A stretch of 64,000 bases of DNA. Source: Lachnospiraceae bacterium. GTDB lineage: Bacteria; Bacillota; Clostridia; Lachnospirales; Lachnospiraceae. Both the position numbers and the translations under genes were made by a program. The stretch is from the NCBI GenBank assembly GCA_017623675.1, contig JAGAOO010000006.1, positions 16,355 to 80,354 of the forward strand, read 5' to 3'. The notes below the pieces were generated by a model. That model did not search any database and was not told where the DNA came from. It saw nothing but the letters and a program-made list of their open reading frames with translations. This document shows positions 4,704 to 62,998 of the stretch, one piece after another (position 1 is the first letter of the stretch; each line of letters opens with the position of its first letter).

Positions 4704-5284
4704 ATTAAATTAAGGTTTAGCGCAATACCTGCGACCGCGGTTTTGTGGATATATATTCCCGCACGACACGCTTGCGCTCCAGCCAGCACGTAACGGTACG
4801 TAAGGCTGTGCATCACAATTATTATGTTCTCTCCTCACAAAGCACAGCCTAAGTACCGACGTGCTTCTAAGGTCGTTGCGGAAACATATACCCTCAAAAC
4901 CGCTGCTGTAGGAATGGACAAACCTATAATTTATATTGGGGAAAGTAGTATGGCTCCGCGAGGATTAAACGTTACCACAAACGTTATTGTTTACGTAATT
5001 ATACGCATTGTCAACATTATGGTATCATTGTTTTCGTATGCATTGATACCTTACGCGGAGCAGTACTTTGCTTCCTATATAAATTATGGGTCATTTCGTA
5101 CAGTTGGCTACCGGTTTCTGGTGATAGATAGTTGCAAGCAGACCTTAAAAGCACGTTGGTGCTTAGGTGCGGTGTTGTCGCACCTTATGCACCATTACGT
5201 GCTGACCGGAGCGCAAGCGTGTCTGCGGTAACTATCTGTCATCAGAAACCGATAAAGCGACTAAACCAACAAACCATAATTTAT
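4704..5284 (+). ncRNA. Large structured non-coding element, copy 1 (unclassified; candidate ornate ncRNA or structured MITE)
   Basis: Second copy at 38439-38991 (reverse-complemented). Nested long helices: 4923-4941/5072-5090, 5113-5133/5230-5250, 4765-4780/5208-5223. G-T wobble positions occur only on the + strand. Compensatory substitutions separate the two copies. The overlapping ORF is not conserved in copy 2. Confidence 0.65.
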
Positions 5285-5365
5285 TGCATTCTCCTCTCAA
5301 TAGCGATACAATAGAGCCAGTGTGACAGTCTATGACTGCAAGTATTAAAAATAAGGAGATTACAT

Positions 5366-6560: not shown

Positions 6561-6771
6561 CCTTTGTGGCTCCTCGAGCCATGCCATCTCGTCTCGGCTC
6601 TGCCTCGACTCGATGTAGGGCTGTCGCCCTATAAGTAGATACGAGCCATGCTTCAGCTCGATTCCGCTTCGCTCCATCTCGCTGACGGGCTGTCGCCCCT
6701 TTGTGGCTCCTCGAGCCATGCCATCTCGTCTCGGCTCTGCCTCGACTCGATGTAGGGCTGTCGCCCTATAA
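6561..6771 (-). repeat. Tandem intergenic repeat array (3 units of about 65-74 nt; same family as 28050-28239, opposite orientation)
   Basis: 6561-6634 and 6698-6771 are identical (74 nt). The 63 nt between them is a diverged copy sharing GAGCCATGC...GGGCTGTCGCCC. The reverse complement matches the GGGCGACAGCC...GCATGGCT unit of the PFL-locus array. Confidence 0.85.
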
Positions 6772-25378: not shown

Positions 25379-27418
25379 ATGGGTTCTGAATGGAATGAAT
25401 TTGTAGGTGGCGAGTGGCAGAAAGTCGTTGACGTAAGAGACTTTATTCAAAAGAATTACACTCCATATGAGGGAGACGATGCTTTTCTTTGCGGACCTAC
25501 ACAGGCAACAAAAGACTTATGGGCACAGGTACTTGATTTATCTAAGAAGGAAAGAGAAGCCGGCGGTGTTTTGGATATGGATACCAAGGTTGTTTCTACT
25601 TTAACATCACATGGTCCTGGTTACCTTGACAAGGACAAGGAAAAGATTGTTGGTTTCCAGACTGATAAGCCTTTCAAGAGAGGTATGAATGTATACGGTG
25701 GTATCCGTATGGCTATGAAGGCTTGTGAAGATAATGGTTATAAGGTAGATCCTGAAATCGTTGAGTTCTTTACAACACACAGAAAGACACATAATGCCGG
25801 TGTATTCGATGTTTATGATGATGAAATCAGAAGATGCCGTACCAACCACATCATCACCGGTTTACCAGATGCTTATGGTCGTGGACGTATCATCGGTGAC
25901 TACAGAAGAGTTGCTCTTTATGGTACAGACTTCTTAATTAAAGACAAGAAAGCACAGAAGGAATCATTTGGTAACGTTTATACTGATGATGTTATCCGTG
26001 GCAAGGAAGAAATCGCTGAGCAGATTCGTGCTTTACAGGAATTAACCAAGATGGCTGCATCTTATGGTTTTGATATTTCTAAGCCAGCTTCAAATGTACA
26101 GGAAGCAATTCAGTGGACATACTTCGGATACTTAGGAGCAGTTAAGGAGCAGAACGGTGCAGCAATGTCCTTAGGACGTACCGCTACTTTCTTAGATATC
26201 TATGCTGAGAGAGACTTAAAGAATGGTAAATTTACTGAAGAAGAAATTCAGGAAATGATTGACCATTTCGTAATGAAGTTAAGACTTGTTAAGTTTGCTC
26301 GTACTCCAGAGTACAACCAGATTTTCGCTGGTGACCCTGTATGGGTAACTGAATCATTAGGTGGTATGGGTGTTGACGGACGTACCTTAGTTTCTAAGAT
26401 GAGCTTCCGTTACTTAAATACTTTGAATAACTTAGGTACCTCACCAGAGCCAAACATGACTGTATTATGGTCTACCAGACTTCCAATGGGTTGGAAGCAG
26501 TTCTGTGCAAAGATGTCTATCAAGTCTTCTTCTATCCAGTATGAGAACGATGACTTAATGAGACCTTTACATGGTGATGACTATGGTATCGCATGCTGCG
26601 TATCTTCTATGGTTATCGGTAAGGAAATGCAGTTCTTCGGTGCTAGAGCAAACCTTGCTAAGTGCTTACTGTATGCTATCAACGGTGGTGTTGATGAATG
26701 TACCGGTGTACAGGTTGGCCCTAAGTATCGTCCAGTTGAGGGTGATGTCCTTGACTATGATGATGTAATGGCTAAGTTCGATGATATGATGGAATGGTTA
26801 GCACGTGTATATGTAAGTGCTTTGAACATCATCCACTATATGCACGACAAGTATGCTTATGAGAGAATTCAGATGGCATTACATGACAGAGATGTTAAGA
26901 GATACTTTGCAACCGGTGTTGCAGGTCTTTCCGTAGTAGCTGACTCATTATCAGCAATCAAGTATGCAACTGTTAAGCCAATCCGTAACGAGCAGGGTAT
27001 TGTTGTAAGCTATGAAACAACTGGCGACTTCCCTAAGTATGGTAATAACGATGACCGTGTTGACTCAATCGCAACTCAGATTGTAACAACCTTCATGGAT
27101 AAGCTTCGTAAGCACCATGTATACAGAAATGGTATCCCAACACAGTCTATCTTAACCATTACTTCTAACGTAACATATGGTAAGAATACAGGTGATACTC
27201 CATGTGGTAGAAAGCACGGTGCACCATTTGCTCCAGGTGCTAACCCACTTCACCAGAGAGATACTCACGGTGCTGTCGCTTCTCTGTCTTCAGTAGCTAA
27301 GATTCCATTTAAGGATGCTCAGGATGGTATTTCTAATACCTTCACAATCATCCCAGGTGCTCTTGGTAAGGAAGATCAGATTTTCGCTGGCGACATCGAT
27401 ATCGATTTAAGCAAATAA
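25379..27418 (+). CDS. pflB: Pyruvate formate-lyase core, lacking the C-terminal glycyl-radical domain
   Basis: 679 aa with active-site ...[10 protein letters not shown]... and ...PGALGKED. It then ends in a 12-aa tail and a stop where normal PFLs continue into the Gly-radical domain. Confidence 0.9.
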
Positions 27419-27463
27419 TTGGCTGACTTATAGTCCGCTATTTCAAACCAAGGAGGTTTTAAT

Positions 27464-27679
27464 ATGGGCGATAAATTAAGTACAGTCGATGACATTGTAT
27501 CAATGTTAGACAATATGATGGGGAATGGCCACGGACATGTAAATGTGTCCGTGGAAGACCCAAACGGTTCCTTAGATAAAGCAGTTGAAACCTTGGGTTG
27601 CACAGATTGTGCAAAAGGAGATCTGGCTTGTCAGGTACCAACCTTAATGGAAGGTATGGATGAGGAACTAAAAAAGTAA
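27464..27679 (+). CDS. Small protein, partial paralog of the start of the PFL glycyl-radical domain, with a Cys-containing tail
   Basis: 71 aa. SD AAGGAGG lies 7 nt upstream. VDDIVSMLDNMMGNGHGHVNVSV parallels [23 protein letters not shown] of the next ORF. The tail contains CTDCAKGDLAC. Confidence 0.55.
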   Translation: MGDKLSTVDDIVSMLDNMMGNGHGHVNVSVEDPNGSLDKAVETLGCTDCAKGDLACQVPTLMEGMDEELKK

Positions 27680-27724
27680 CAATCATATATTATTCAATTA
27701 TATTAAAATTAGGAGGTAATTATT

Positions 27725-27964
27725 ATGGCAGCAACACAGCAGGTTGATAACTTAGTAAACATGTTAGACGGATACGTTTCTAAAGGCGGATATCACTTAA
27801 ATGTAAACGTATTGAACAGAGATACTTTACTTGATGCTCAGAAGCATCCAGAAAACTATCCACAGTTAACAATTCGTGTATCTGGATATGCAGTAAACTT
27901 CATCAAATTAACTCCAGAGCAGCAGAACGACGTTATCTCAAGAACATTCCACGAGGCTATGTAG
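27725..27964 (+). CDS. Free-standing glycyl-radical domain (GrcA/YfiD-like autonomous glycyl radical cofactor)
   Basis: 79 aa. SD TAGGAGG lies 7 nt upstream. ...[35 protein letters not shown] carries the RVSGYAV radical-glycine motif. Confidence 0.9.
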
Positions 27965-28049
27965 TCTAGCTACAAGCCATGCAAAAATAGCAGCTATTGG
28001 TCAAAGAGTGTGCTTGCACACTCTTGACTGATGGCTGTTATTTTTATAC

Positions 28050-28239
28050 GGCGACAGCCGTCTACCGAGTCGTAACGAAGTGAAGACGAGGTAGTGCATG
28101 GCTTGTAGCATGTGGGCGACAGCCGTCTACCGAGTCGTAACGAAGTGAAGGCGAGATAGGCATGGCTTGTAGCATGTGGGCGACAGCCGTCTACCGAGTC
28201 GTAACGAAGTGAAGACGAGGTAGTGCATGGCTTGTAGCA
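28050..28239 (+). repeat. Tandem intergenic repeat array (3 units, 65/64/61 nt)
   Basis: GGCGACAGCCGTCTACCGAGTCGTAACGAAGTGAAGACGAGGTAGTGCATGGCTTGTAGC occurs three times with starts at 28050, 28115 and 28179. The period is not a multiple of 3. Confidence 0.9.
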
Positions 28240-31090: not shown

Positions 31091-32029
31091 AATCTCGCCT
31101 TTTCCAAGCAAGGTTGCCATAACTGCTTTTTCTGCATGACGGCGATTTTCTGCCTGGTCTAAAATATGCTCTAAATTCTTATCCACTACTTCCTGTGAAA
31201 TCTCAAACCCAACATGCATTGGCATATCATGAAGAACAATCGCCTTACTGCCCTCTAAGAACTCATCATTAATCTGATACGGCATCATCATTTTCAAGGT
31301 TTTTTCCTTCTGCTCTGCATAGGCAGGATTGTTAAAGAACTCCATGTCTACCCAGGTGTCTGTATATAGTACATCCATATCCTTAACATATGACTTTGCT
31401 TCCTCCATGGACATGGCAGGATTTAACTCCACATAGTAGCCGGTTGCTTTCGCTTTTTCATAGAAATCAGCTTCCACTGCTGTATCATTTACCAATGGGG
31501 TTAATCCATATAAAGTTCCCATTTCCATCTTAGAAAAGAATTCCACTAAGGAATTAAATACATTGTTCTTTGCACCAATATATAAGAACTTCACATTTAA
31601 AGTGCCAAACTTTTCTAACAGAGTCAGTGCATCTGCTAATATCTGGCATGGATGATAGGTACTGTCACAACCATTGATAAATGGTACGGTAGTATTGGCA
31701 CCAAACAATTCTACGGTTTCATTTTTAATTAAACGTGCCATGATAATATCTACATTTCTTCCTACATAACGAAGTTCTGACACCGGTTCTCCCAATACGA
31801 AATTCGAATCCTTCCACAACTGATTGTAATAGGTTCCGCCTAATTCTGTGATACCTGTGGTAAATGATAAGAAGGTTCTAGTAGAAGTCTTTTCAAATAA
31901 GGTATACAATTTCTTTCCCTCTAACACCTTAGAATACTTCTCCGGATTCTTCTTCATATCTAATGCAAGATTCAAAATCTGCATTAATTCCTCTTTACTA
32001 TGTTCCTTAAAATTCAACATATTTTTCAT
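31085..32029 (-). CDS. Aspartate/ornithine carbamoyltransferase-family protein with atypical motifs
   Basis: STRTF (not STRTR), HPCQILAD present, DTWVDME in place of the SMG loop, LHDMPMH in place of HCLP. Confidence 0.6.
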   Translation of the reverse strand: MKNMLNFKEHSKEELMQILNLALDMKKNPEKYSKVLEGKKLYTLFEKTSTRTFLSFTTGITELGGTYYNQLWKDSNFVLGEPVSELRYVGRNVDIIMARLIKNETVELFGANTTVPFINGCDSTYHPCQILADALTLLEKFGTLNVKFLYIGAKNNVFNSLVEFFSKMEMGTLYGLTPLVNDTAVEADFYEKAKATGYYVELNPAMSMEEAKSYVKDMDVLYTDTWVDMEFFNNPAYAEQKEKTLKMMMPYQINDEFLEGSKAIVLHDMPMHVGFEISQEVVDKNLEHILDQAENRRHAEKAVMATLLGKGEIL

Positions 32030-32377
32030 ATGATTTTCCCCTTATTCTTTCTTTGGTTTTTTATTGTTTATTGAAATCTTATGTTAGCACACTTCCCTTC
32101 GGTTTTCAAGACTGGTATGCGTTTAGATTATTTGATTATATATCTATTTTTTACATTTTTATAAAATATATTGATTTACTCATTGTATTATGATATGATG
32201 AATATACTTCGAAGTAAAAACGTAATAGTATCATTAAAATGATATTAAAACGTGTATTCTTTTGAACCATTTCGGTTCTACATTCCATATTTTTATATCC
32301 GTTTTGTTCTAACTATTGCAATATCCATAGAACGAATCAACATTTATCATTGCACTTATTTTACGAAAGGAGTATTT

Positions 32378-33439
32378 ATGACTGAAACTTTACATACTGA
32401 TATACCAGACAATACCATTCATCATATTTATGACAAAGTATTTAAGAAAATACTGACTCTTTCTTCCACTGCAGTTATAAATCTGATTAATGGACTCTTT
32501 GATACTGACTATCCAACCAACAGCACGATTACCTATAATTGGACGGAATTCGAAGACGACCATCTGCGAAAAACACTGGCAGATACCATAATCACTATTA
32601 ACGGATACCATAGCTACCACATGGAGGCTCAGACTACTCCGGATGATGAGATTATTTTTCGTGTGTTTGACTATGGCTACAGTCACGCAGAACGCAATCG
32701 GACGCATGTTGATGACGGATGTATACTGACATTTCCAGAACCCAAAATCATCTACCTGTACTCTGAAAAACCTGTACCTGAAGTATATACTCTTACTTTA
32801 GATTTTGGCTCACAGGGAACCTTTGAATACAAGGTCTCTACCTGTAACTATCAAGCGATTCCCATAGAAGAATTAAATCGCAGAAAAATGGTAATATTAA
32901 TCCCCTTCTCCCTACTGCGTTTACGGGATGCAATTAAGCAGGAACGCACACCAGATCGATTATTGCAATTGAAAACATTAATTCAAGATGGTATAATCGG
33001 AAGTATCAATAAAAATCTGACTATAGGAAATATAACACAGAGTGATGCCAGAAGATTACGAAGCTTAACTCAGAAATTATATGACCACCTATATGCTCAT
33101 TATGAAGAAATGGAGGAGTTGAATGATATGACCGATGAATCTCTTATACTGGAATATGATATAATTGAAAAGGAACATGAAACCGAATTAGCGCAAATGG
33201 ATGCCATTATTTCTGAAAAAGAAACTACCATATCCAAGATGGATATCATTATCTCGGAAAAAGATAACATCATCTCAGAAAAGGACGATATCATCTCGGA
33301 GAAGGAAAACATCATCTCGGAGAAGGAAAACATCATCTCGGAGAAGGAAAACATCATCTCGGAGAAGGAAAACATCATCTCGGAAAAAGAGGAAGAAATT
33401 CTCCAACTCCGCCGACAATTAGAAGCATTAACAAAGTAA
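32378..33439 (+). CDS. Rpn/YhgA-like PD-(D/E)XK putative nuclease with a C-terminal heptad-repeat tail
   Basis: Start moved to the ATG at 32378 (SD AAAGGAG). D...HMEAQT core-like motif. The C-terminus is (I)ISEKENI tandem heptads. Confidence 0.5.
   Translation: MTETLHTDIPDNTIHHIYDKVFKKILTLSSTAVINLINGLFDTDYPTNSTITYNWTEFEDDHLRKTLADTIITINGYHSYHMEAQTTPDDEIIFRVFDYGYSHAERNRTHVDDGCILTFPEPKIIYLYSEKPVPEVYTLTLDFGSQGTFEYKVSTCNYQAIPIEELNRRKMVILIPFSLLRLRDAIKQERTPDRLLQLKTLIQDGIIGSINKNLTIGNITQSDARRLRSLTQKLYDHLYAHYEEMEELNDMTDESLILEYDIIEKEHETELAQMDAIISEKETTISKMDIIISEKDNIISEKDDIISEKENIISEKENIISEKENIISEKENIISEKEEEILQLRRQLEALTK
33203..33394 (+). repeat. In-frame 21-bp tandem repeat inside the CDS
   Basis: ATCATCTCGGAGAAGGAAAAC repeats perfectly 4 times (33290-33373), flanked by degenerate copies. 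Confidence 0.9.
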
Positions 33440-33538
33440 TACTATTATAATGCCCAGAGTCAAACGGATTTGCATAGCATCTATTTGACCCTGGGCTATT
33501 ATTTTTTATCGAAACAGATCTAATAGCTTCTGCCATCT

Positions 33539-34312
33539 TCAGTTTAGTACCCTAGGCTTTACTTTCGTCTTCTTTCCAAAAAGCTTCTTTTTCTTTTTGC
33601 GGCGGTTTTCTTCTAAAGTTGCCGCTGCTTCTGCATTTGCCTTTTGACGGCTTCGGATTGCTTCATCTAATTTGCGGAACCGTTCTTCCTCCCGTTCTTC
33701 ATTTTCACGCATTACATAGTCCATTTGTTTTATTACCCGTTCTGATACTTTGTCTGACACTTCGTTGCTAATCGCACCTGTCAGAGAGCGATTGTTTGCT
33801 TCCAGAGCTTTTCCGATAATCTTTGTCATGATTTCCTGGAACTGTTCCATTTTTAATTCTGCTGACATGGTATCCACCGGTGCTTGACTGGATACATTGG
33901 CTAAAGCTTGTCTCATCTCAATCACCTTACTGCCACCATTCTCGTTTTCCTGCTTGTTATGCATTTCACCCGTACTCTTTTCTGAAACATACTTTTCTGT
34001 TGTTAATCCATTTGTCATCACTGCTGCCGCCTGATTCAACAGCTCACGCTGATCCAGTAATGCATTCCAATTAAAATCCTTATTCGCGTATATTTCAGGA
34101 AGCACCTGCTTGATTGCTTTCAGTTGAAATCCCTGATCCTTCATCTCACGAACCGCATGCAGAACCCGAATATCATCAGCCGTATAATAGCGATGTCCCA
34201 TCTCATTTCGCTTAATTTTCATGCCCAACTCTTCCTCCCAATAACGAAGAACATGCGGTTCTACCTTTAACTGACGAGATGTATCGGATATCATATATCG
34301 TGTTTCGTTCAT
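33539..34312 (-). CDS. MerR-family transcriptional regulator with long charged C-terminal region
   Basis: N-terminal HTH ISDTSRQLKVEPHVLRYWEEELGM...GHRYYTADDI. Confidence 0.75.
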   Translation of the reverse strand: MNETRYMISDTSRQLKVEPHVLRYWEEELGMKIKRNEMGHRYYTADDIRVLHAVREMKDQGFQLKAIKQVLPEIYANKDFNWNALLDQRELLNQAAAVMTNGLTTEKYVSEKSTGEMHNKQENENGGSKVIEMRQALANVSSQAPVDTMSAELKMEQFQEIMTKIIGKALEANNRSLTGAISNEVSDKVSERVIKQMDYVMRENEEREEERFRKLDEAIRSRQKANAEAAATLEENRRKKKKKLFGKKTKVKPRVLN

Positions 34313-34427
34313 AAAAAATCCCCCTTAGTGTGTCATGTATTCGTTGCTAGATACATGATACACCAAGGAGGATTTCTTCCTCAATTTCTATCGTATGCGA
34401 TTTTCTTATCCTTTTTGACATGATTCG

Positions 34428-34490
34428 GTTTCGACTGAGCCCTGTGTCCGAGCCAAAAAGCAGTGAAGTGAGATGCATGGCTTATGTCTC
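34428..34490 (+). repeat. Solitary degenerate unit of the ~65-nt intergenic repeat family
   Basis: CGACTGAGCC...CCGAGCC...GCAGTGAAGTGAGATGCATGGCTTATG aligns by eye with the 28050 unit. Confidence 0.5.
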
Positions 34491-34541
34491 TTATACAATC
34501 TGGAAGCTGCCGGGTTCTCCATTTAGAAAAAAACGTCATAT

Positions 34542-34881
34542 TTAAACATAACAAATCATTTGTAAATCATATGGTTCAGTTTCTGCAAATTCTTTTATTG
34601 GACAGTCTGTCAGTTCAGCTCCCATAGCTTCATAAAAAGCAATAGTTTCTTCAGATGAGCATGCTGAAATATACAAAGCCTCTGCTCCGGCCTTTCGGGC
34701 TTCTCCCTTTCCTGCATCAAACAGTCTCCTTCCAAATCCCAGTCTTCTGTATAAACACAGTCTACCAGAACATATTCTCCATTATGCTTACGATAAACGT
34801 TTTTACATCATGTTTTCTTTGGTAATTGTCCAAAGAATCTAGTTTAAAATTTTCTGTTGATAATAATTCAATTCTAATCAA
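34542..34881 (-). pseudogene. GNAT-family N-acetyltransferase remnant (frameshifted, internally deleted)
   Basis: Own translation finds fragments in three frames: (L)IRIELLSTENFKLDSLDNYQRKHDV / KNVYRKHNGEYVLVDCVYTEDWDLE / RRLFDAGKGEARKAGAEALYISACSSEETIAFYEAMGAEL... Confidence 0.6.
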
Positions 34882-34934
34882 TTTTTTCTCTCCTAAAATA
34901 CAAATCTAATCTGTTGTAATTCATTTATTATCTT

Positions 34935-35822
34935 TTAATAATTTTTTTGCTTTACACAAATGATGACTGCCATAATAATCATTGGAATCATGCTGATAAT
35001 ACCAATATATGCCGGCCCAAGAATTGCCTTATCTGCATACTCGGGTTTAGAAAGATAAGCAAATATGGTAAATGCATTGGTTGCACCATGCATCAGTGAC
35101 GGAAGCCAGATGGTTTCTGTCTTTTCATACACATAATCAAACAAAATACCCATCATAACGGTACAGATACAGAATACAATCGGTCCGAGTACCGGTGCAC
35201 CAATATATTCTTTCCCATACTCATAGCCGGCAAAAATCATAACCGGCCAGTGCCAAGCCCCCCAGATTGCACCACCCACGATACGTCCCTTGGTGACACC
35301 AAGTTTCTCTTTAAGATATGGATACAAAGCACCTCTCCAACCGACCTCTTCACCTAACGCAATAAACATATTAATAAATGGTACATATGTAACCGCCTGA
35401 ATTGCAGAAATCAATAGATACATTGGAACCGTTAAGCCTTGTGCTTCTAACTGCTCAAGTGCGCCAGCCTCTTCTAAAAGTCCATGCAAAGTCAAAAATT
35501 CAGAATCAAACGCATCCGGGAAAATTGCAAAAAACAAAACACCACCAACAATGCTTAATAATGCAGGAACCCAAAGTGCAAAGAAAACATATCTAATTCT
35601 CCCTTTCAAATGCGGAACCCATCCCATGCCTTTTAGTGATATTCTTGCTATGAGCACTCCCAGGAAAGGCATATACATCGCAATCATTAAAATAACTTGA
35701 AATACCATTTGATTTCCTTTGTTGCTATAAATGCTTGCAATCATTTCCAAAATCCAGGCCAGGCCAAATGCCACTATCATATATATCGTAAATTGCTTTT
35801 TACTAATTATATTTTTTTCCAT
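34935..35822 (-). CDS. CPBP-family intramembrane glutamic endopeptidase (CAAX protease/Abi-like)
   Basis: Polytopic. Motifs EEVGWRG, FxxxH-like AWHW and HGATN. Confidence 0.8.
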   Translation of the reverse strand: MEKNIISKKQFTIYMIVAFGLAWILEMIASIYSNKGNQMVFQVILMIAMYMPFLGVLIARISLKGMGWVPHLKGRIRYVFFALWVPALLSIVGGVLFFAIFPDAFDSEFLTLHGLLEEAGALEQLEAQGLTVPMYLLISAIQAVTYVPFINMFIALGEEVGWRGALYPYLKEKLGVTKGRIVGGAIWGAWHWPVMIFAGYEYGKEYIGAPVLGPIVFCICTVMMGILFDYVYEKTETIWLPSLMHGATNAFTIFAYLSKPEYADKAILGPAYIGIISMIPMIIMAVIICVKQKNY

Positions 35823-36550
35823 TATGAATTAACCCCTTTTCTATATACTTCAAGACTCCATATTCTTCTCTTACAACTAGGACAAGTTAACTTTCTCATT
35901 TTTGGAGTATGATTTCCAAATACTGCTTCCATTTTCTTAGGCCGAAACCTGGTATGGCATTCAGGACAAATATACTCTATCTGTTTATACCAATAGTCAA
36001 ACATAAAAATAAGACAAATACTAACCACAGCCAAAGCTACAAAAAATGGTATCCATATTCCTTTTAGTATACCGATAACAAAAGTCACAATTTCTACAGT
36101 TTCTAGCGGAATTGCGATTACCACTATCTTTTTATACATTTTCTTTAATTTATCTTTTTCTTCCATAACCTGCGATATGTCATGAATTGTTTTTTGCGTT
36201 CCGTCCTTGAAAGAAGATAAGGCACTTCTTATACTTTTTATTTTTTCTAATTGTTCCGTTTTTCTCTTAACATCTTCCTGAATATTTTTCTCTTGTTCAT
36301 CAAGCAAAAGTTCAATTACTTTTTTTGACTCATCGGATTCCAATAATTCAGCAATATCTTTAATGGAGATATCCAAGTCTCTTAAAAAACAAATTGTTTC
36401 CAATGTAACAACATCATCTTCAGAGAAAAGTCTTCTTCCTCCCTCTGTCAAATCCGTTGGAACAAGAATTCCTCTTTCATCATAGTACTGAACAGTTCTT
36501 ACTGAAACACCACACTTCTTTGCAAGTTCTCCGGTTGTGTATAATGACAT
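35822..36550 (-). CDS. Membrane-anchored MerR-type regulator with C-terminal zinc ribbon
   Basis: Start at 36550 (SD AAGGAGG). HTH YTTGELAKKCGVSVRTVQYYDERGIL, a coiled region, 2 TM helices, then CPEC...CPSC. Its stop overlaps the CPBP start (TAATG). Confidence 0.7.
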   Translation of the reverse strand: MSLYTTGELAKKCGVSVRTVQYYDERGILVPTDLTEGGRRLFSEDDVVTLETICFLRDLDISIKDIAELLESDESKKVIELLLDEQEKNIQEDVKRKTEQLEKIKSIRSALSSFKDGTQKTIHDISQVMEEKDKLKKMYKKIVVIAIPLETVEIVTFVIGILKGIWIPFFVALAVVSICLIFMFDYWYKQIEYICPECHTRFRPKKMEAVFGNHTPKMRKLTCPSCKRRIWSLEVYRKGVNS

Positions 36551-36679
36551 ATCTCTGCCTCCTTTCAAAGGCTATATTAGTATATAACGCAGCGTGACAA
36601 GCAATATATCACGCTGCGTTATTTTTAGAATATATTATCGACCTTATCCCATTAAACTGGAATTTTCATAAATTGTTTA

Positions 36680-37321
36680 TTATATCAGATTCAACCAATA
36701 CAACACATAAGAAAGCAATATAAATAATGCAGGAATAGCTATCAGCAACAATATCCCAATTAAATGATTCTTTCTTTCAGTTCTCGATGCTGTCAATCCA
36801 TATGGCTCTTTCCACAAATGTGTGATGGTCAAAAAGATGTATATAGCCCAATATGTACATGAGGGAATTGCAGCGTATCCTGTCCATTCTGAATCAGTTA
36901 ATACAGTTCCTCTTTCAAATAATAAAAAGCTTACAATTGAAATAATGGGACAAATATAATGTAACAACAAATTGGCTTTCTTGGGTTCTAATCCTCCAAA
37001 CAAATCTGTATGAGATTTACTTTTTCCGGATTTGAACCTTGGTGCTAAAAAAAAGGCAAAAACAAACATAGTAGCCGCAAGACCACACGTTGCCGTATAT
37101 CGTAATCCTTTAATTAATTCAGGAACATTACCATATCCCAATAATTCTATAATAGCAAAACCACAGAATAAAATGCTTATAGCAAGAGCAATAAAATTCT
37201 GAAGAAAAGTATAGAACTTCAATATATTTAACTTGTTCTTTACTTTTAGAAAGGTTGCACCTTCTATTATAATAAGTAAAAAGTTAAACATTAAAGCCAT
37301 AATTAATTGAACTGTTCTCAT
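36680..37321 (-). CDS. Hypothetical polytopic membrane protein
   Basis: About 6 hydrophobic helices, AT-rich codon usage, SD GGAAGGA upstream of the ATG at 37321. Confidence 0.5.
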   Translation of the reverse strand: MRTVQLIMALMFNFLLIIIEGATFLKVKNKLNILKFYTFLQNFIALAISILFCGFAIIELLGYGNVPELIKGLRYTATCGLAATMFVFAFFLAPRFKSGKSKSHTDLFGGLEPKKANLLLHYICPIISIVSFLLFERGTVLTDSEWTGYAAIPSCTYWAIYIFLTITHLWKEPYGLTASRTERKNHLIGILLLIAIPALFILLSYVLYWLNLI

Positions 37322-37419
37322 ATATCTATCCTTCCGCAAATTCCTATTTTTCTCTACTCAACCACCTCGCCAAATTGGAAGTTGTCTATTTCTTGCAAAT
37401 CAATTAAATATCAATTTTT

Positions 37420-37683
37420 TTAATTATTCTTTTTAATTTCTTCTATCAATTCATAGCAAAACTTTTTCCATTTATCCATGTCATCATCACTTGGGAACCA
37501 TATTCTCCCACCTACGCTAAATTCTATAGATGAAGCGTCTAATGACTCAAAATATACTCGTGGTTCATATGGATGCCCCGACATACGATACTTAAAATTC
37601 TTTCCATCTATGATAGTTTCAAAAACGCCAAAGTGTTCTAAATTATAAAATTTGCATATACTATCTTGATATTTAATATCCAT
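37420..37683 (-). CDS. Hypothetical small cytoplasmic protein
   Basis: 87-aa ORF with no recognisable motif, in an AT-rich islet. Confidence 0.4.
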   Translation of the reverse strand: MDIKYQDSICKFYNLEHFGVFETIIDGKNFKYRMSGHPYEPRVYFESLDASSIEFSVGGRIWFPSDDDMDKWKKFCYELIEEIKKNN

Positions 37684-37814
37684 AACATTACCACCTTATT
37701 AATATGTAAATTGGAATTTGACACTTCACAACTTCGTACCTAAGTTTCATTTTAATAATTTATAGCATTTATTAATTCCAATAACGACTCCTGTCCATCA
37801 TCCGAACCAAGCAA

Positions 37815-38384
37815 CTAATAAGAATCACAATACTCATCATTAACTGCTTTTACTTCAAGAAATGGTTCCACTGTTAAGCCATTTATCAGCATTCTATATA
37901 ATTCACTTCGTTCTTTTGTAAATCCATGTTCTTGAGCAAATCTACCAAATACCTCTTCGTGTTCACTCTGCTCAGTTTCATCCATACTATCAAGAAAATC
38001 TTTCTCGGTTTTCAAAATACTTACATCACAGTAATCAGAAACATACTTTCCAAACGCTATTATATTCATAAAATCGTCAATGCATTTTGCTACTATTCCA
38101 CATTCACCTTCGGTACCTATATATCCAATCATTTCATCATTTATAACTACCCATAAAGCTCCCGATCCATCTCTTGCAAAAGGTTTCCTATCACTATAAC
38201 TTGAAATACCTGGCCCCATAAGATCTTCCAACCAATTGTCATCATCTTCAAGATCTTTTACCCAATTTTCATCATATATTTCAACATCACAATCATAAAA
38301 AGCATCTAATAATTCATTATCATCAGTTATTTCTTCCATATACTTTTTAAGTTTATCAGGTAAACTTGTATTATCAAATTTCAT
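37815..38384 (-). CDS. Hypothetical acidic protein, possibly SMI1/KNR4 (SUKH)-like immunity-type fold
   Basis: 189 aa, very acidic. The ...RDGSGALWVVINDEMIGY... segment resembles SUKH family cores as I recall them (weak). Confidence 0.35.
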   Translation of the reverse strand: MKFDNTSLPDKLKKYMEEITDDNELLDAFYDCDVEIYDENWVKDLEDDDNWLEDLMGPGISSYSDRKPFARDGSGALWVVINDEMIGYIGTEGECGIVAKCIDDFMNIIAFGKYVSDYCDVSILKTEKDFLDSMDETEQSEHEEVFGRFAQEHGFTKERSELYRMLINGLTVEPFLEVKAVNDEYCDSY

Positions 38385-38438: not shown

Positions 38439-38991
38439 ATAAATTATGGTTTAACGTACCAAGTCGCCTTATCGGTTTCTGATGACAGATAGTTACCGCA
38501 GACACGCTTGCGCTCCGATCAGCACGTAATGGTACATAAGGCTGTAAAATACACAGCCTAAGTACCAACGTGCTTTTAAGGTCTGCTTGCAACTATCTAT
38601 CACCAGAAACCGGTAGCCAACTGTACGAAATAACCCATAATTTATATGGGGAGCAAAGTACCGCTCCGCGCAAGGTATCAATGCCTACGAAAGCAATGAT
38701 ACCTTAATACTGACAATGCGTATAATTACGTAAACAATAACGTTTGTGGTAACGTTTAATCCTCGCGGAGCCATACTACTCTCTCCAATATAAATTATGG
38801 GTTTTACCAGAGTAGATGTTCGGCGGATGAATATATATGCTTGAATGCAGACTCTAAAAGTACGTCGGTACTTGGATTGCATCTTTTGCAATCCTATGTA
38901 CCGTTACGTACTGACCGAAGTGCAAACGTGTCTGCATCAAGTATATATATTCGAAGCCGAACGCTAGTCAGTACGATAAACCATAATTTAT
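38439..38991 (-). ncRNA. Large structured non-coding element, copy 2 (reverse orientation)
   Basis: Collinear with the reverse complement of 4704-5284. Core is near-identical. Arm hairpins carry compensating changes. Wobble positions are G-U only on the minus strand. The track ORFs here are interrupted relative to copy 1. Confidence 0.65.
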
Positions 38992-38992
38992 C

Positions 38993-40342
38993 TCACGACC
39001 TTCTACTCTTCTCCAAATTCACGAACTTTGTATACTCTCCCTGCCAACCCAGCATCACAGTGCCGGTAGCACCATTTCTCTGCTTGGCAATGATGATTTC
39101 CGCCTTATTCTTATCCTCTTCCGGCAAATCATCCCGATATTTATCTTCTCTGTAAATGAACATAACAACGTCTGCATCCTGCTCGATAGAACCGGATTCA
39201 CGCAGGTCCGAAAGCATTGGTCGGTGATCGGTTCTGGCTTCTACTGCACGGCTTAACTGAGAAAGTGCAATAATCGGCACATCTAATTCCTTTGCCAGCA
39301 CTTTAAGCCCTCTGGAGATTTCCGAAACCTCCTGCTGACGGGAATCACTTCTTCCACTTCCACTCATCAACTGTAAGTAGTCAATGATGATTAAGCCTAC
39401 ATTATGACGTTGCTTTAATTTTCTACATTTATTCCGAATATCTCCAATGGTTACATTGGACTGGTCTTCAATAAATAATTTCGTTCCACCGATGATATTG
39501 GAGCTCTCATACAGCTTCATCCACTGGTCATCCTGTAAATTACCGGTACGAATATTCTGGGAATTTACCTGTGACTCCATGGCAATCATACGCTGTACTA
39601 ACTGCTCCTTATTCATTTCGAAATTGAAAATAGCAACAGGGACATCCGTTTTCAGAATAACATATTCTGCAATATTCAATACAAATGCAGTTTTACCCAT
39701 TGCCGGTCTGGCTGCCACCAGAATCAATTCGGAACCATGCAGTCCGGTCAGCATATCATCTAAGTCCATGAAACCTGTTGGAACACCGGTAATATTTCCC
39801 TGCTGTTTGGATGCCTCTCGAATGTTACGAAGAACATTGTCTACCACTTCCCGAATAGGAACAATATCATCGCCGGCATTTCCCTGCTGGGTCAGTTCTA
39901 ATACTTCATTTTCAATGTTACTGAGTATGTTGGTGGATGTATCTTTCAGAGAATAACAATCATTGGCAGCGGTTTCCGCCAACTTAATCACCCGCCGCAT
40001 ATTGGCACGGTCTTTTACGATACCGGCATATTTTTTGGCATTTGCCGAAGTGGGCACCACGCTCATTAATTCCTGCATGGTTTCAATGCCATAGACATTT
40101 TCCGGCACACCTTTTTCCTTTAACCGTTCCATTAAGGTAATCAAATCAATGGCAGTTCCTTCATGATACAACTCTACCATTGCTTCAAATATCGCACCAT
40201 ACTGAGGCTGATAGAAATCCTCTTTTGTCAACATATCTGCTACATTGACAACTGCTTCCCGGCTCATCAGCATAGATGCAAGCACTGCCTGCTCTGATTC
40301 CACACTATTCGGTTGTGTCTTACGGATTACTGCTTCTTCCAT
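38993..40342 (-). CDS. dnaB: Replicative DNA helicase
   Basis: 449 aa; Walker A ARPAMGKTAF; conserved rplI-dnaB synteny. Confidence 0.95.
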   Translation of the reverse strand: MEEAVIRKTQPNSVESEQAVLASMLMSREAVVNVADMLTKEDFYQPQYGAIFEAMVELYHEGTAIDLITLMERLKEKGVPENVYGIETMQELMSVVPTSANAKKYAGIVKDRANMRRVIKLAETAANDCYSLKDTSTNILSNIENEVLELTQQGNAGDDIVPIREVVDNVLRNIREASKQQGNITGVPTGFMDLDDMLTGLHGSELILVAARPAMGKTAFVLNIAEYVILKTDVPVAIFNFEMNKEQLVQRMIAMESQVNSQNIRTGNLQDDQWMKLYESSNIIGGTKLFIEDQSNVTIGDIRNKCRKLKQRHNVGLIIIDYLQLMSGSGRSDSRQQEVSEISRGLKVLAKELDVPIIALSQLSRAVEARTDHRPMLSDLRESGSIEQDADVVMFIYREDKYRDDLPEEDKNKAEIIIAKQRNGATGTVMLGWQGEYTKFVNLEKSRRS

Positions 40343-61930: not shown

Positions 61931-62998
61931 ATGAAACGAATTATCCTTACCGGTGGCGGAACTGCCGGACATGTTACTCCGAATATTGCATTAATCCCTT
62001 ATTTACAGGAAGCCGGATATGATATTCACTATATTGGCTCCTATACCGGCATTGAAAAGAAATTAATTGAAGATATGAAGATTCCTTATCATGGAATCTC
62101 CTCCGGTAAACTACGGCGATACTTTGATGTAAAGAATTTTTCCGATCCCTTTCGTGTTATAAAAGGATATGGCGAAGCCTCCCGTCTGATTAAAAGCCTG
62201 AAACCGGATGTGGTATTCAGTAAGGGTGGATTTGTCTCTGTTCCTGTTGTTATGGCAGCAAAGAATCATAAGGTACCTGCTATTATTCACGAATCAGATA
62301 TGACACCGGGACTTGCCAATAAGTTGTGTATACCATGTGCTGCCAAAATATGCTGCAATTTCCCTGAAGCTATGGAGCATTTACCAAAAGACAAGGCGGT
62401 ATTAACCGGCACACCTATCCGACAGGAATTATTCAAAGGCGACCCGGTTGAGGCAGTTCAATTTACCGGACTGGATGCCAATAAACCGACCATACTGGTA
62501 GTTGGCGGCAGTACCGGAAGCGTAAAGGTGAATGAAGCAGTTCGAGGCTGTTTAGACGAGCTGTTACAGACCTATCAGGTTATTCATTTATGTGGAAAAG
62601 ATAAAGTTGATTCTGAATATGAAAATCGTGCCGGATATGTACAGTATGAGTACATTAAAAAGGAACTAAGTTCTTTACTGGCATTTGCAGATATTGTAAT
62701 TTCCAGAGCCGGTGCCAATGCTATCTGTGAACTGCAGGCTTTGGCAAAACCGAATATCCTGATTCCTCTTGGTTCTAATGCCAGCCGGGGCGACCAGATT
62801 CTTAACGCCGAATCCTTTGAAAAACAAGGCTTCAGTTATGTTCTTATGGAGGAAAACCTTTCGAAGGAAGCTTTGTTAGAAGCTGTCAACTATGTGTATG
62901 AGCATCGCAGTGAATATAAAAAGACCATGGAAGCCAGCCAGATGACCAATGCCATTGAAAAAATAATGAAATTGATTAATCGAGCTGCAAATCAATAA
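61931..62998 (+). CDS. murG: Undecaprenyldiphospho-muramoylpentapeptide beta-N-acetylglucosaminyltransferase
   Basis: LTGGGTAGHVTPN, ...ISRAGANAICE...; 355 aa. Confidence 0.92.
   Translation: MKRIILTGGGTAGHVTPNIALIPYLQEAGYDIHYIGSYTGIEKKLIEDMKIPYHGISSGKLRRYFDVKNFSDPFRVIKGYGEASRLIKSLKPDVVFSKGGFVSVPVVMAAKNHKVPAIIHESDMTPGLANKLCIPCAAKICCNFPEAMEHLPKDKAVLTGTPIRQELFKGDPVEAVQFTGLDANKPTILVVGGSTGSVKVNEAVRGCLDELLQTYQVIHLCGKDKVDSEYENRAGYVQYEYIKKELSSLLAFADIVISRAGANAICELQALAKPNILIPLGSNASRGDQILNAESFEKQGFSYVLMEENLSKEALLEAVNYVYEHRSEYKKTMEASQMTNAIEKIMKLINRAANQ

What the first reader, a model, noticed from the sequence alone, without database searches (positions are those of the whole stretch)
38439..38991. Copy 2 of the structured element: starts 2 nt after the dnaB stop codon and runs into the next gene without a terminator
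Copy 2 lies on the minus strand. Its first base (38991) is 2 nt downstream of the dnaB stop codon (38993-38995). Its last base (38439) is 54 nt upstream of the ATG of the next minus-strand CDS (38384). Only a 7-bp hairpin with no T-run lies between. Copy 1 is placed the same way, 81 nt upstream of a same-strand CDS (5366), again with no terminator. So both copies would be embedded in mRNAs, as a 3' UTR of dnaB or a 5' leader of unrelated genes, rather than in stand-alone transcription units. The left-arm terminal loop is 30 nt in copy 1 (4811-4840) and 4 nt in copy 2, which is typical of a variable-length stem tip in a structured RNA. In the 16-bp arm-arm pairing, copy 2 has two G-U pairs and one A:C when read on the minus strand. 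Read on the plus strand, the two G-U pairs would be further mismatches. This again supports minus-strand RNA.
Basis: partly seen in the sequence, partly recalled or inferred. Interest (0 to 1): 0.8.

Follow-up and report, generated by a model that had tools for sequence, protein, structure and literature searches.

The report
Modular palindromic intergenic repeat, REPIN/MITE-like
The "structured element" after dnaB is real, but it is best read as one copy of a family of hairpin-forming DNA repeats that sit between housekeeping genes of a rumen Lachnospiraceae bacterium and get swapped, rearranged and deleted between strains, not as a dedicated RNA gene.

Summary
A 553-nt element (38439-38991, minus strand) starts 2 nt after the dnaB stop and ends 54 nt before the next gene. 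No terminator-like site lies between dnaB and that gene. A second copy lies at 4704-5284.

Each copy is built as hairpin unit (about 200 nt), central hairpin, inverted hairpin unit. An 11-15-nt motif, ATAAATTATGG(TTTA), bounds every module.

The unit hairpin is strongly supported by covariation: 25 of 57 pairs show compensatory changes, and 94.5% of cells pair against 30-41% in slid controls. There is no strand signature: both strands fold equally well (z about -17), and G-U pairs do not outnumber A-C.

No Rfam family matches. No conserved ORF, no convincing promoter (weak consensus matches only) and no nearby transposase was found.

Related species lack the element after dnaB. Strains with an identical DnaB protein carry at least four different sequences at that junction. 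Other copies sit at infB, argC-argJ and ribBA-epimerase, in different unit combinations. One strain keeps only a 19-nt remnant.

Units are 88-90% identical between species whose dnaB fourfold-degenerate sites are 62% identical.

Best reading: a new REPIN/MITE-like non-autonomous repeat family, probably co-transcribed passively. A functional RNA is not excluded.

The parts
38439..38991 (-). Copy 2, the composite element: unit (beta type), central hairpin, inverted unit (gamma type)
   Evidence: RNA fold z = -16.9 on the minus strand and -17.4 on the plus strand.
38790..38991 (-). Copy 2 left arm, a beta-type hairpin unit of 202 nt bounded by ATAAATTATGG ... CCATAATTTAT
   Evidence: It is 90.5% identical to the reverse-complemented right arm in L018 and 95.5% identical to the L051 left arm.
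38646..38789 (-). Copy 2 central domain (144 nt). Its conserved base stem is GTAGTATGGCTCCGCG ... CGCGGAGCGGTAC; its interior is variable.
   Evidence: The interior is replaced by a 75-nt version in L018 and by an unrelated interior in L061.
38439..38645 (-). Copy 2 right arm, a gamma-type unit of 207 nt in inverted orientation
   Evidence: It is 93.6% identical to the copy 1 right arm.
4704..5284 (+). Copy 1, the composite element: alpha-type unit, central hairpin, inverted gamma-type unit. It lies between divergent argJ and aminotransferase genes.
4704..4934 (+). Copy 1 left arm, an alpha-type unit of 231 nt with a 30-nt terminal loop at 4811-4840. Its outer terminal motif is degenerate (ATTAAATTAAGG).
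   Evidence: It is 88% identical to the solo unit after dnaB in L039 and 100% identical to the L060 arm.
4935..5078 (+). Copy 1 central domain (144 nt)
5079..5284 (+). Copy 1 right arm, an inverted gamma-type unit of 206 nt
38981..38991 (-). Outer terminal motif ATAAATTATGG of copy 2. The same 11-mer recurs at 38790-38800, 38635-38645 and 38439-38449, and in copy 1 at 5079-5089 and 5274-5284.
   Evidence: 6 exact matches, all inside the two copies. The motif also bounds unrelated hairpin units in Acutalibacteraceae MAGs.
38911..38932 (-). The 'bulge' of the left arm (GACACGTTTGCACTTCGGTCAG). It is complementary to 38501-38522 in the right arm, and it is the site of an optional roughly 95-nt branch in relatives.
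38501..38522 (-). The matching 'bulge' of the right arm (CTGATCGGAGCGCAAGCGTGTC)

Best explanation
The element is one copy of a family of non-autonomous, palindromic, interspersed DNA repeats in a rumen or gut Lachnospiraceae lineage related to 'Clostridium sp. CAG:632'.

The basic module is a hairpin unit of about 200 nt. It has:
- invariant 11-15-bp inverted termini, ATAAATTATGG(TTTA) ... (TAAA)CCATAATTTAT;
- a variable outer stem kept paired by compensatory changes;
- a conserved apical core with fixed internal loops;
- a variable tip and an optional side branch.

The 550-670-nt 'structured element' is a doublet: two units in inverted orientation around a central hairpin. This is the same logic as a REPIN (two inverted REPs plus a spacer), at about five times the size.

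Shown here:
- Units occur alone or in different pairings.
- They sit in short gaps between housekeeping genes, often abutting or supplying the upstream stop codon.
- They differ between strains at the same junction.
- They coincide with rearrangement breakpoints.
- They can be lost, leaving a 19-nt end remnant.

Inferred:
- A trans-acting enzyme encoded elsewhere in the genome recognises the conserved termini or the hairpin. A single-strand-DNA, HUH/Y1 (RAYT/IS200-like) mechanism fits best, given the absence of target duplications, the maintained hairpins and the asymmetric remnant. A DDE transposase that duplicates TA is the alternative.
- Copies also exchange arms by recombination.
- Because the copies lie inside operons they are probably transcribed passively. 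As very stable RNA hairpins they may affect mRNA decay or the balance of expression between neighbouring cistrons.
For: Architecture and inverted-unit relation.

Hairpin maintained: 57 pairs, 94.5% of cells paired against 30-41% when the 3' partners are slid. 25 pairs have both sides changed, against 12.7 +/- 2.2 in shuffles (0 of 500 reach it).

No strand signature.

No Rfam match, even at E <= 10 (copy 2) or E <= 1 (L051).

Repeat behaviour: 8 of the 9 places shown for contigs encoding the identical DnaB end 29-79 nt after the stop. Contigs also break at the element at the epimerase and aminotransferase loci.

Same junction, at least four different sequences among strains with an identical DnaB.

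Absent after dnaB in relatives with 91-95% identical DnaB.

Other forms and loci:
- solo alpha unit after dnaB in a sister species;
- infB | beta-C-gamma(long) | aminotransferase;
- argC | beta-rcC-rc(alpha) | argJ;
- ribBA | element | epimerase.

Loss and persistence at the ribBA-epimerase site: one strain keeps only ATAAATTATGGTTTAACGC, joined to the right flank at or within 2 nt of the element's right end. The element is present at the same junction in a species whose epimerase is 81% identical.

The terminal motif also bounds unrelated hairpin units in Acutalibacteraceae MAGs.

Units are 88-90.5% identical across species, against 62% at dnaB fourfold sites.

Published REPIN properties for comparison (PMC3116915): inverted doublet plus spacer, compensatory changes, excision that leaves a few bases of one end.
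Against: - No cognate transposase or RAYT was found. None lies in the 64-kb window or near the other loci. The rest of the genome could not be searched.
- No target-site duplication longer than 2 bp flanks any copy. There is no clean empty site in a near-identical strain, and no excision intermediate.
- Copy number per genome is unknown. Only 4-5 loci were seen.
- Pattern scans of 185,579 species genomes found only one other composite and two distant single units. Scans of JGI metagenomes, IMG/VR, phages and plasmids found no related sequence. Exact-match patterns are insensitive, and repeats break assemblies.
- The conserved unpaired core nucleotides, the cross-species conservation above neutral and the persistence at an orthologous site would also fit a functional RNA or DNA structure.
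- Some 'rearrangements' could be assembler mis-joins at the repeat.
Confidence: 0.66

Rival explanations
1. A functional structured RNA. This could be a cis-acting intercistronic or UTR module, or a processed non-coding RNA. It would be co-transcribed with dnaB and its neighbours, and the three-way junction and the arm-arm pairing would be the active fold.
For: - Very strong fold and covariation.
- Conserved unpaired nucleotides in the unit core and variable-length stem tips.
- No terminator between dnaB and the next gene.
- Copies lie inside operons: argC-argJ, the ribBA-epimerase gap (followed by ribH), and dnaB with its downstream gene.
- Units are more conserved between species than fourfold sites.
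- The element is kept at an orthologous junction across species.
- The minus strand of copy 2 and the central-domain-sense strand of L018 fold 13-17 kcal/mol better than their complements.
- CUUG-like and UUCG-like loop sequences sit at the bulge. I read this from the sequence; it is a weak hint.
Against: - No Rfam family matches.
- Both strands fold with the same z-score. Copy 1 shows no strand difference.
- G-U pairs are rare and do not exceed A-C.
- The two arms are reverse complements, so any single transcript carries one arm in sense and one in antisense.
- Orientation of the central domain relative to the flanking genes is inconsistent.
- The most conserved part is the outermost helix sequence. 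It is shared with units whose interior is unrelated, as expected of enzyme-recognised termini and not of an RNA core.
- The element is absent from orthologous dnaB loci.
- Arms and central interior are swapped freely.
- No convincing promoter was found.
Confidence: 0.17
2. A site-specific recombination substrate, that is, an invertible or shufflable segment. The four ATAAATTATGG sites, in alternating orientation, would be crossover sites for a recombinase. That enzyme would flip or exchange the arms, the centre or the whole element, and so switch expression of the neighbouring genes.
For: - The sites alternate in orientation and bound every module.
- After an identical dnaB junction, contigs L004 and L009 read the exact reverse complement of copy 2's right end for 29 nt, as expected if the whole element is inverted.
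- The junction is constant to the nucleotide while the unit behind it varies.
- Beta units occur on either side of the centre.
- The terminus is tandemly duplicated at the L018 right end.
- Copy 1 carries a weak TTGACA-17-AACAAT match in its centre.
Against: - No recombinase gene lies in the window or near the other loci.
- The opposite junction of an inverted copy was never seen. All downstream-gene contigs have the window's orientation.
- The L004/L009 reading is equally explained by a gamma-type unit sitting in the left position.
- This model does not explain long maintained hairpins with a conserved core.
- No strong promoter lies inside the element.
Confidence: 0.1
3. A protein-coding or toxin-antitoxin-like locus. 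The central domain carries a Shine-Dalgarno-like GGAGAG followed by an ORF for a small hydrophobic peptide (MAPRGLNVTTNVIVYVIIRIV...).
For: The ORF with an SD-like site is present in copies 1 and 2 and in L051.
Against: - The ATG is absent in L018, where the codon is AAG and the centre is only 75 nt.
- The interior is replaced in L061.
- The reading frame ends differently in copy 1 and copy 2.
- Substitutions between the copies are mostly non-synonymous.
Confidence: 0.03

Closest known systems
REPINs (REP doublets forming hairpins) mobilised by RAYT transposases (Bertels & Rainey 2011, PMC3116915)
   Same: - Two palindromic units in inverted orientation around a spacer fold into one long hairpin.
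- The ends are highly conserved and the spacer is variable but stays paired through compensatory changes.
- The elements are extragenic, and singlets and higher-order arrangements also occur.
- No target duplication.
- Loss events leave a few bases of one end.
- Long persistence at orthologous sites.
- No transposase inside the element.
   Different: - The units are about 200 nt, not about 20-25 nt. The doublet is 550-670 nt, not about 70-110 nt.
- The termini are AT-rich, not a GC-rich REP with a GTAG head.
- The host is Lachnospiraceae (Firmicutes), not Proteobacteria.
- No RAYT gene has been identified.
- Copy number is unknown and probably low.
- Each unit has a conserved branched core.
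Bacterial MITEs such as Correia elements (Neisseria), RUP and BOX (Streptococcus pneumoniae), ERIC/IRU and bcr1 (Bacillus cereus group). Definition taken from Delihas 2011, PMC3184786; the named examples are from my own knowledge.
   Same: - Short non-coding interspersed repeats with terminal inverted repeats.
- They fold into long hairpins as RNA.
- They sit in intergenic regions and inside operons, are co-transcribed with neighbours, and can supply stop codons or promoter halves.
- BOX elements are modular (boxA, boxB, boxC).
   Different: - No target-site duplication is detectable here beyond a possible, uninformative TA.
- No parent insertion sequence with the same termini is known.
- The element is larger than most bacterial MITEs.
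- The hairpin is maintained by compensatory change and does not decay.
- The motif recurs internally, bounding sub-modules.
Large structured bacterial RNAs in Rfam (ROOL, GOLLD, OLE, HEARO)
   Same: Size (about 550 nt), an ornate multi-stem fold, variable stem tips, and occurrence in gut or rumen Firmicutes.
   Different: - No covariance-model match.
- Dyad-symmetric DNA.
- No strand preference.
- Presence or absence and module swapping between strains.
- Termini shared with unrelated elements.
Invertible promoters and shufflons (fimS, Hin/hix, R64 Rci shufflon) and Xer-dependent pdif modules of Acinetobacter plasmids. These comparisons are from my own knowledge.
   Same: Modules bounded by short conserved sites in alternating orientation. 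Different modules are found behind an identical junction.
   Different: No adjacent recombinase, no demonstrated pair of orientations, and no convincing internal promoter. The site does not match dif, hix or sfx consensus sequences.

Membership tests
MITE (Delihas 2011, PMC3184786) | Terminal inverted repeats straddling a core | tested here: met
   The termini ATAAATTATGGTTTA and TAAACCATAATTTAT are 15 bp and perfect in copy 2. The repeat extends to 32 nt at 81% (I8). The same termini occur in L016, L017, L018, L039, L051 and L060.
MITE (Delihas 2011, PMC3184786) | Flanked by a target-site duplication (direct repeat) | tested here: not met
   No direct repeat longer than 2 bp flanks any of 7 junction pairs read. 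A TA duplication cannot be told apart from the palindromic ends.
MITE (Delihas 2011, PMC3184786) | No transposase gene; small size; folds into a long hairpin | tested here: met
   No conserved ORF. Units are 195-320 nt and the doublet is 553-670 nt, above the usual size of 400 bp or less. Fold z-scores run from -5 to -17.
MITE (Delihas 2011, PMC3184786) | Multiple copies; evidence of past mobility (filled and empty sites) | tested here: inconclusive
   At least 5 loci across strains (dnaB, infB/aminotransferase, argC-argJ, ribBA-epimerase). Absent after dnaB in relatives. A 19-nt remnant in L059. But there is no exact empty site, and genomic copy number is unknown.
MITE | A parent insertion sequence with matching termini | not testable with these tools
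None was seen in the window or in the fetched loci.
REPIN/RAYT system (PMC3116915) | Two palindromic repeats in inverted orientation plus a spacer, forming a hairpin | tested here: met
   The left arm equals the reverse complement of the right arm. The doublet folds as a three-way structure closed by its two ends.
REPIN/RAYT system (PMC3116915) | Compensatory changes keep the hairpin; the ends are more conserved than the spacer | tested here: met
   25 of 57 pairs have double changes. The terminal helix never varies in 7 of its 10 pairs, while the outer stem varies in 9 of 12.
REPIN/RAYT system | REP unit of about 20-25 nt, GC-rich, with a GTAG/CTAC head. This feature is from my own knowledge. 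| tested here: not met
   The units are about 200 nt with AT-rich termini. GTAG-headed GC-rich hairpins occur only inside the distant Acutalibacteraceae units L016 and L017.
REPIN/RAYT system | A single-copy RAYT (Y1 HUH transposase) gene in the same genome, itself flanked by the repeats | not testable with these tools
   No Y1_Tnp or other transposase domain is found among about 50 window ORFs or the neighbours of other copies. The rest of the genome is not available. Group 1 RAYTs are reported in Clostridia (PMC5581495).
Known structured RNA families (Rfam 15) | Covariance-model match at or near the gathering score | tested here: not met
   No hit in the element at gathering score. The best E-value hit is a 55-nt miRNA-like hairpin at 24 bits against a threshold of 80. 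Nothing is found in L051.
Strand-specific structured RNA (generic) | One strand folds better and G-U pairs exceed A-C; consistent orientation relative to transcription | tested here: not met
   z = -16.9 against -17.4. Energies: c1 -239/-240, c2 -254/-241, L018 -277/-260. G-U 34 against A-C 28. 4 G-U among 398 cells. The central domain is antisense to the flanking genes in L018 and L060.
Inverton / shufflon | Both orientations at one locus, plus a cognate recombinase nearby | tested here: inconclusive
   L004 and L009 read the reverse complement of the right end after dnaB, but for only 29 nt. The opposite junction was not seen. No recombinase is present.

The most novel reading that the evidence does not exclude
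These may be 'giant REPINs' of Firmicutes: a vertically persistent population of hairpin replicators, built from 200-nt units, that a domesticated single-strand-DNA (HUH/Y1) enzyme maintains. The conserved branched core would be that enzyme's recognition structure. The host would retain the elements at operon junctions, where they abut or supply stop codons, because the resulting RNA hairpins set the relative expression of neighbouring cistrons. This would extend the REPIN-RAYT type of long-term element-host association beyond Proteobacteria and to a new structural scale. A more radical variant is that the unit core is a functional RNA motif that spreads as DNA.
Probability: 0.25. Interest if true: 0.7.

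Novelty: new variant of a known kind. Interest (0 to 1): 0.5.

Why it matters
If correct, this is an undescribed family of interspersed palindromic repeats in gut and rumen Lachnospiraceae.

- It explains why metagenome assemblies of these organisms break next to core genes such as dnaB, argJ and ribBA.
- It is associated with strain-level gene-order differences whose breakpoints fall inside the element.
- It places extremely stable hairpins (about -250 kcal/mol) inside essential operons.
- Its doublet-of-hairpins design, compensatory evolution, above-neutral conservation and persistence at orthologous sites parallel REPIN-RAYT systems, which are documented mainly in Proteobacteria. A Firmicutes counterpart with 200-nt units would widen that concept and point to an unidentified enzyme.
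- It is also a caution for RNA discovery. Strong fold z-scores and covariation alone do not separate a structured RNA from a maintained DNA palindrome.

Tried and rejected
Searches that found no related sequence:
- Rfam found nothing in the element at gathering score. At E-value thresholds (E <= 10 for copy 2, E <= 1 for L051) there were only weak chance hits for copy 2 and none for L051.
- blastn of the element against 50,697 phage and 72,556 plasmid records gave no match.
- Arm-core and central-domain patterns gave 0 matches in IMG/VR.
- The arm-core pattern gave 0 matches in GTDB species genomes.
- The central-junction pattern and the arm-termini pattern each gave 0 matches in JGI metagenomes.
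- The arm-termini pattern in IMG/VR gave 3 chance hits, in AT-rich coding sequence or unrelated repeats.
- A text search for the terminal motif found two unrelated papers. Literature searches for MITEs or palindromic repeats in Clostridia and Lachnospiraceae found nothing specific.

Ideas considered and dropped:
- IS200/IS605-type elements with a fixed 4-5-nt target: the bases 5' of the copies are not conserved.
- Integron attC sites: RYYYAAC/GTTRRRY-like ends occur in only some units, and there are no cassettes.
- dif/Xer sites: the resemblance to the XerD arm stops after TTATG.
- hix/gix sites.
- Single-strand origins of rolling-circle plasmids.
- The small ORF in the centre is not conserved.

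Tests that gave no answer:
- I looked for the inverted copy's other junction through the downstream gene and its 99% homologue. Only the window's orientation was seen, or the flank was too short.
- An nhmmer profile of the unit found no further copies in the window or in 60 fetched loci beyond the known arms.
Full report

Yes. Copy 2 occupies 38439-38991 on the minus strand. It begins 2 nt after the dnaB stop (TGA, 38993-38995) and ends 54 nt before the ATG at 38384. Only the hairpin ACAAATC-GG-GATTTGT lies between. Copy 1 occupies 4704-5284 on the plus strand and ends 81 nt before the CDS at 5366.

The copies share 348 nt at 92% identity (I1), while the left arms are only 78% alike. A consensus scan finds no terminator between dnaB and the next gene and no convincing promoter in either copy.

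The fold is far beyond chance: -256 kcal/mol and z = -16.9 on the minus strand. The plus strand does just as well, at -242.8 kcal/mol and z = -17.4.

**2. Anatomy**

Four copies of an 11-mer, ATAAATTATGG or its complement, divide each element into three parts: a left arm of 202-231 nt, a centre of 144 nt and a right arm of about 206 nt. All 6 exact matches of the 11-mer in the 64 kb lie inside the two copies.

Each arm is a long imperfect hairpin. The right arm is the reverse complement of the left-arm type. The element is therefore a dyad: unit, centre, inverted unit.

Its complementarity follows from shared descent. In two relatives that exact spot carries a branched insertion of about 95 nt (L018 left arm and L051 right arm). 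It therefore behaves as an optional third stem.

**3. Is the hairpin selected, and on which strand?**

Seven units were aligned. They fall into three types: alpha, beta and gamma.
- The consensus hairpin has 57 pairs.
- 94.5% of cells pair, against 30-41% when the 3' partners are slid by 1-3 columns.
- 25 pairs have changes on both sides, against 12.7 +/- 2.2 in shuffles; 0 of 500 shuffles reach that number.
- The outer stem varies most: 9 of its 12 pairs covary.
- The terminal helix and the apical core barely vary.

There is no RNA-strand signature.
- G-U is 4 of 398 cells, and A-C cells are about twice as many.
- Summed over the arm and centre hairpins of both copies, G-U against A-C is 34 against 28.
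- Copy 1 folds equally on both strands. Copy 2 and L018 differ by about 5-6%.

**4. No known RNA, protein or mobile-element match**

- Rfam has no hit in the element at gathering score, and only weak chance hits or none at permissive E-values.
- blastn against phage and plasmid collections finds nothing.
- The ORFs inside the element are not conserved. The central SD-plus-peptide ORF loses its ATG in L018 and its sequence in L061.
- About 50 ORFs of the window are ordinary chromosomal genes, mostly housekeeping: arg genes, ATP synthase, PFL, agr-like quorum sensing, murG and others. None is a transposase or recombinase.

**5. Who carries it, and where?**

DnaB homologues place the organism in Lachnospiraceae near 'Clostridium sp. 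CAG:632'. The same DnaB occurs in ruminant gut metagenomes.

*The dnaB junction.*
- Of the 9 places shown for contigs encoding the identical DnaB, 8 end 29-79 nt after the stop. This is typical of a repeat or of a polymorphic site.
- Behind an identical junction there are at least four different continuations. They are the window's beta unit, the exact reverse complement of copy 2's right end (a gamma unit in left orientation; L004 and L009), and two others (L002, L007).
- Three related lineages (DnaB 95%, 94% and 91% identical) have no element. In most loci read for the 91% and 94% lineages the next gene starts 18-34 nt after dnaB (about 140 nt in two of them). The 95% lineage has a 183-nt gap. 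None contains the motif.
- A sister species (DnaB 98% identical; dnaB region DNA 82% identical) has a single alpha unit there. The dnaB stop TAA lies inside its terminal motif, and the unit ends directly on the RBS of a different downstream gene.

*Other loci.*
- infB stop (inside the motif) | beta, centre, gamma with insertion | aminotransferase (L051).
- argC stop + 10 nt | beta, reversed centre, reversed alpha | 29 nt | argJ, inside the arg operon (L060).
- The same locus with a different central interior (L061).
- ribBA stop (inside the motif) | element | epimerase RBS (L018).

The window instead joins argJ and the aminotransferase through one element. This implies a rearrangement with its breakpoint in the element, or an assembler mis-join at the repeat.

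The doublets seen are alpha/gamma, beta/gamma, beta/gamma-long, alpha-long/beta and alpha/beta. The modules therefore recombine.

**6. Loss, persistence and conservation**

At the ribBA-epimerase junction, a strain with a 98% identical epimerase (L059) keeps only ATAAATTATGGTTTAACGC. This is joined to the right flank at, or within 2 nt of, the element's right end. A species whose epimerase is 81% identical has an alpha-type unit ending at exactly the same junction, and its contigs break there.

L018 also carries a 15-nt orphan terminus in tandem with the element's end.

Between the window's species and the L018/L039 species, the alpha units are 88% identical and the beta units 90.5% identical. 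dnaB fourfold-degenerate sites are only 62% identical. The units are therefore either under constraint or recently exchanged.

**7. The termini are the most widely shared part**

The only other hits to the terminal pattern in 185,579 species genomes are single units of about 195 nt in two Acutalibacteraceae MAGs. They have the same 15-nt termini but an unrelated interior that contains GTAG-headed GC-rich hairpins.

Conserved termini around interchangeable, hairpin-forming interiors are what an enzyme-recognised mobile element shows. An RNA family does not look like this.

**8. Interpretation**

The best-supported reading is a non-autonomous, palindromic interspersed repeat family. The 553-nt 'structured element' is a doublet of hairpin units.

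Its logic matches REPINs: an inverted doublet plus spacer, compensatory changes, no target duplication, loss that leaves a few bases of one end, and long persistence (PMC3116915). It also overlaps bacterial MITEs: terminal inverted repeats, no transposase, a long hairpin, and positions inside operons (PMC3184786).

Membership in either family is not established.
- The REP size and GTAG head are not met, and no RAYT is known. Group 1 RAYTs do occur in Clostridia (PMC5581495).
- For MITEs, the target-site duplication is not met.

I infer a trans-acting enzyme. A single-strand-DNA HUH type fits best. I also infer passive co-transcription, with possible effects on mRNA stability. Neither inference is shown.

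**9. Rivals**

A functional RNA remains possible (0.17). The arguments for it are the conserved unpaired core, the above-neutral conservation and the operon positions. An inverton or shufflon reading (0.10) rests mainly on 29 nt in L004 and L009. A peptide or toxin locus is unlikely.

**10. Limits**

- Repeats are under-assembled in MAGs.
- The alignment has seven units of three types, so covariation counts include inherited changes.
- No transcript data are available.

Noticed in passing
window 6561-6771 and 28031-28223: A second interspersed repeat family. Each site has about three tandem units of 64-69 nt (GGGCGACAGCC...GAGTCG...GACGAG...GCATGGCT), and the two sites are in opposite orientation. 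One lies downstream of the aminotransferase gene. The other lies between the GrcA-like ORF and the PFL activase gene. The first array is also present, identical, in L051.
   Followed up: partly
window 62453-62627 (-): This is the only Rfam gathering-score hit in the window: Staphylococcus sRNA S414, 48.2 bits against a threshold of 45. It lies antisense inside a murG-like ORF (61931-62998, +), so it is probably a false positive.
   Followed up: no
window 32029-38384, compared with L019-L050: The region downstream of dnaB is a strain-variable island. The window has about 6-7 kb between dnaB and argF (OTCase), against about 1.1-2.8 kb in relatives. The extra genes include a homologue of proteins that one source names SMI1/KNR4, an 87-aa ORF, MerR regulators, an Rce1-like protease and an ice-binding-like repeat protein. 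The element sits at the island's dnaB-side boundary.
   Followed up: partly
window 37815-38384 (-): The gene after copy 2 (189 aa) ends 21 codons earlier than its 99% identical homologue P0121 (210 aa). The N-terminus is intact, so the element does not truncate it.
   Followed up: partly
window 33150-33390: A 21-nt tandem repeat lies inside ORF 32252-33439. It encodes reiterated ...IISEKE(N/D)... heptads. The ORF has a weak ice-binding beta-roll match.
   Followed up: no
window 25379-27966: The pyruvate formate-lyase gene (679 aa) ends within the glycyl-radical domain. A small ORF (about 27465-27680) and a separate GrcA-like glycyl-radical ORF (about 27727-27966) follow it. This resembles a 'spare part' arrangement.
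   Followed up: no
window 38762-38673 (-) and 4946 onward (+): The central domain carries an SD-like GGAGAG followed by an ORF for a hydrophobic peptide (MAPRGLNVTTNVIVYVIIRIVSIKVSLLS in copy 2). It is not conserved in L018 or L061, so it is probably spurious.
   Followed up: yes
L016 890-1215 and 1323-1517; L017 4330-4523: Acutalibacteraceae MAGs carry hairpin units with the same 15-nt termini, or the variant CAAATTACGGTTTA. Their interiors contain GTAG-headed GC-rich palindromes (GTAGGGAACGCAT..ATGCGTTCC) that resemble classical REP sequences.
   Followed up: partly
L018 3459-3489: The terminus is tandemly duplicated at the element's right end (TTAAACCATAATTTAT CAAACCATAATTTAT). It looks like an orphan end left by an earlier element.
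   Followed up: partly
window 5274-5320: The last T of copy 1 plus the flank forms TTGCAT-17 nt-TACAAT upstream of the aminotransferase gene. This could be a hybrid promoter across the element-flank junction. I read it by eye; the scan did not report it.
   Followed up: no
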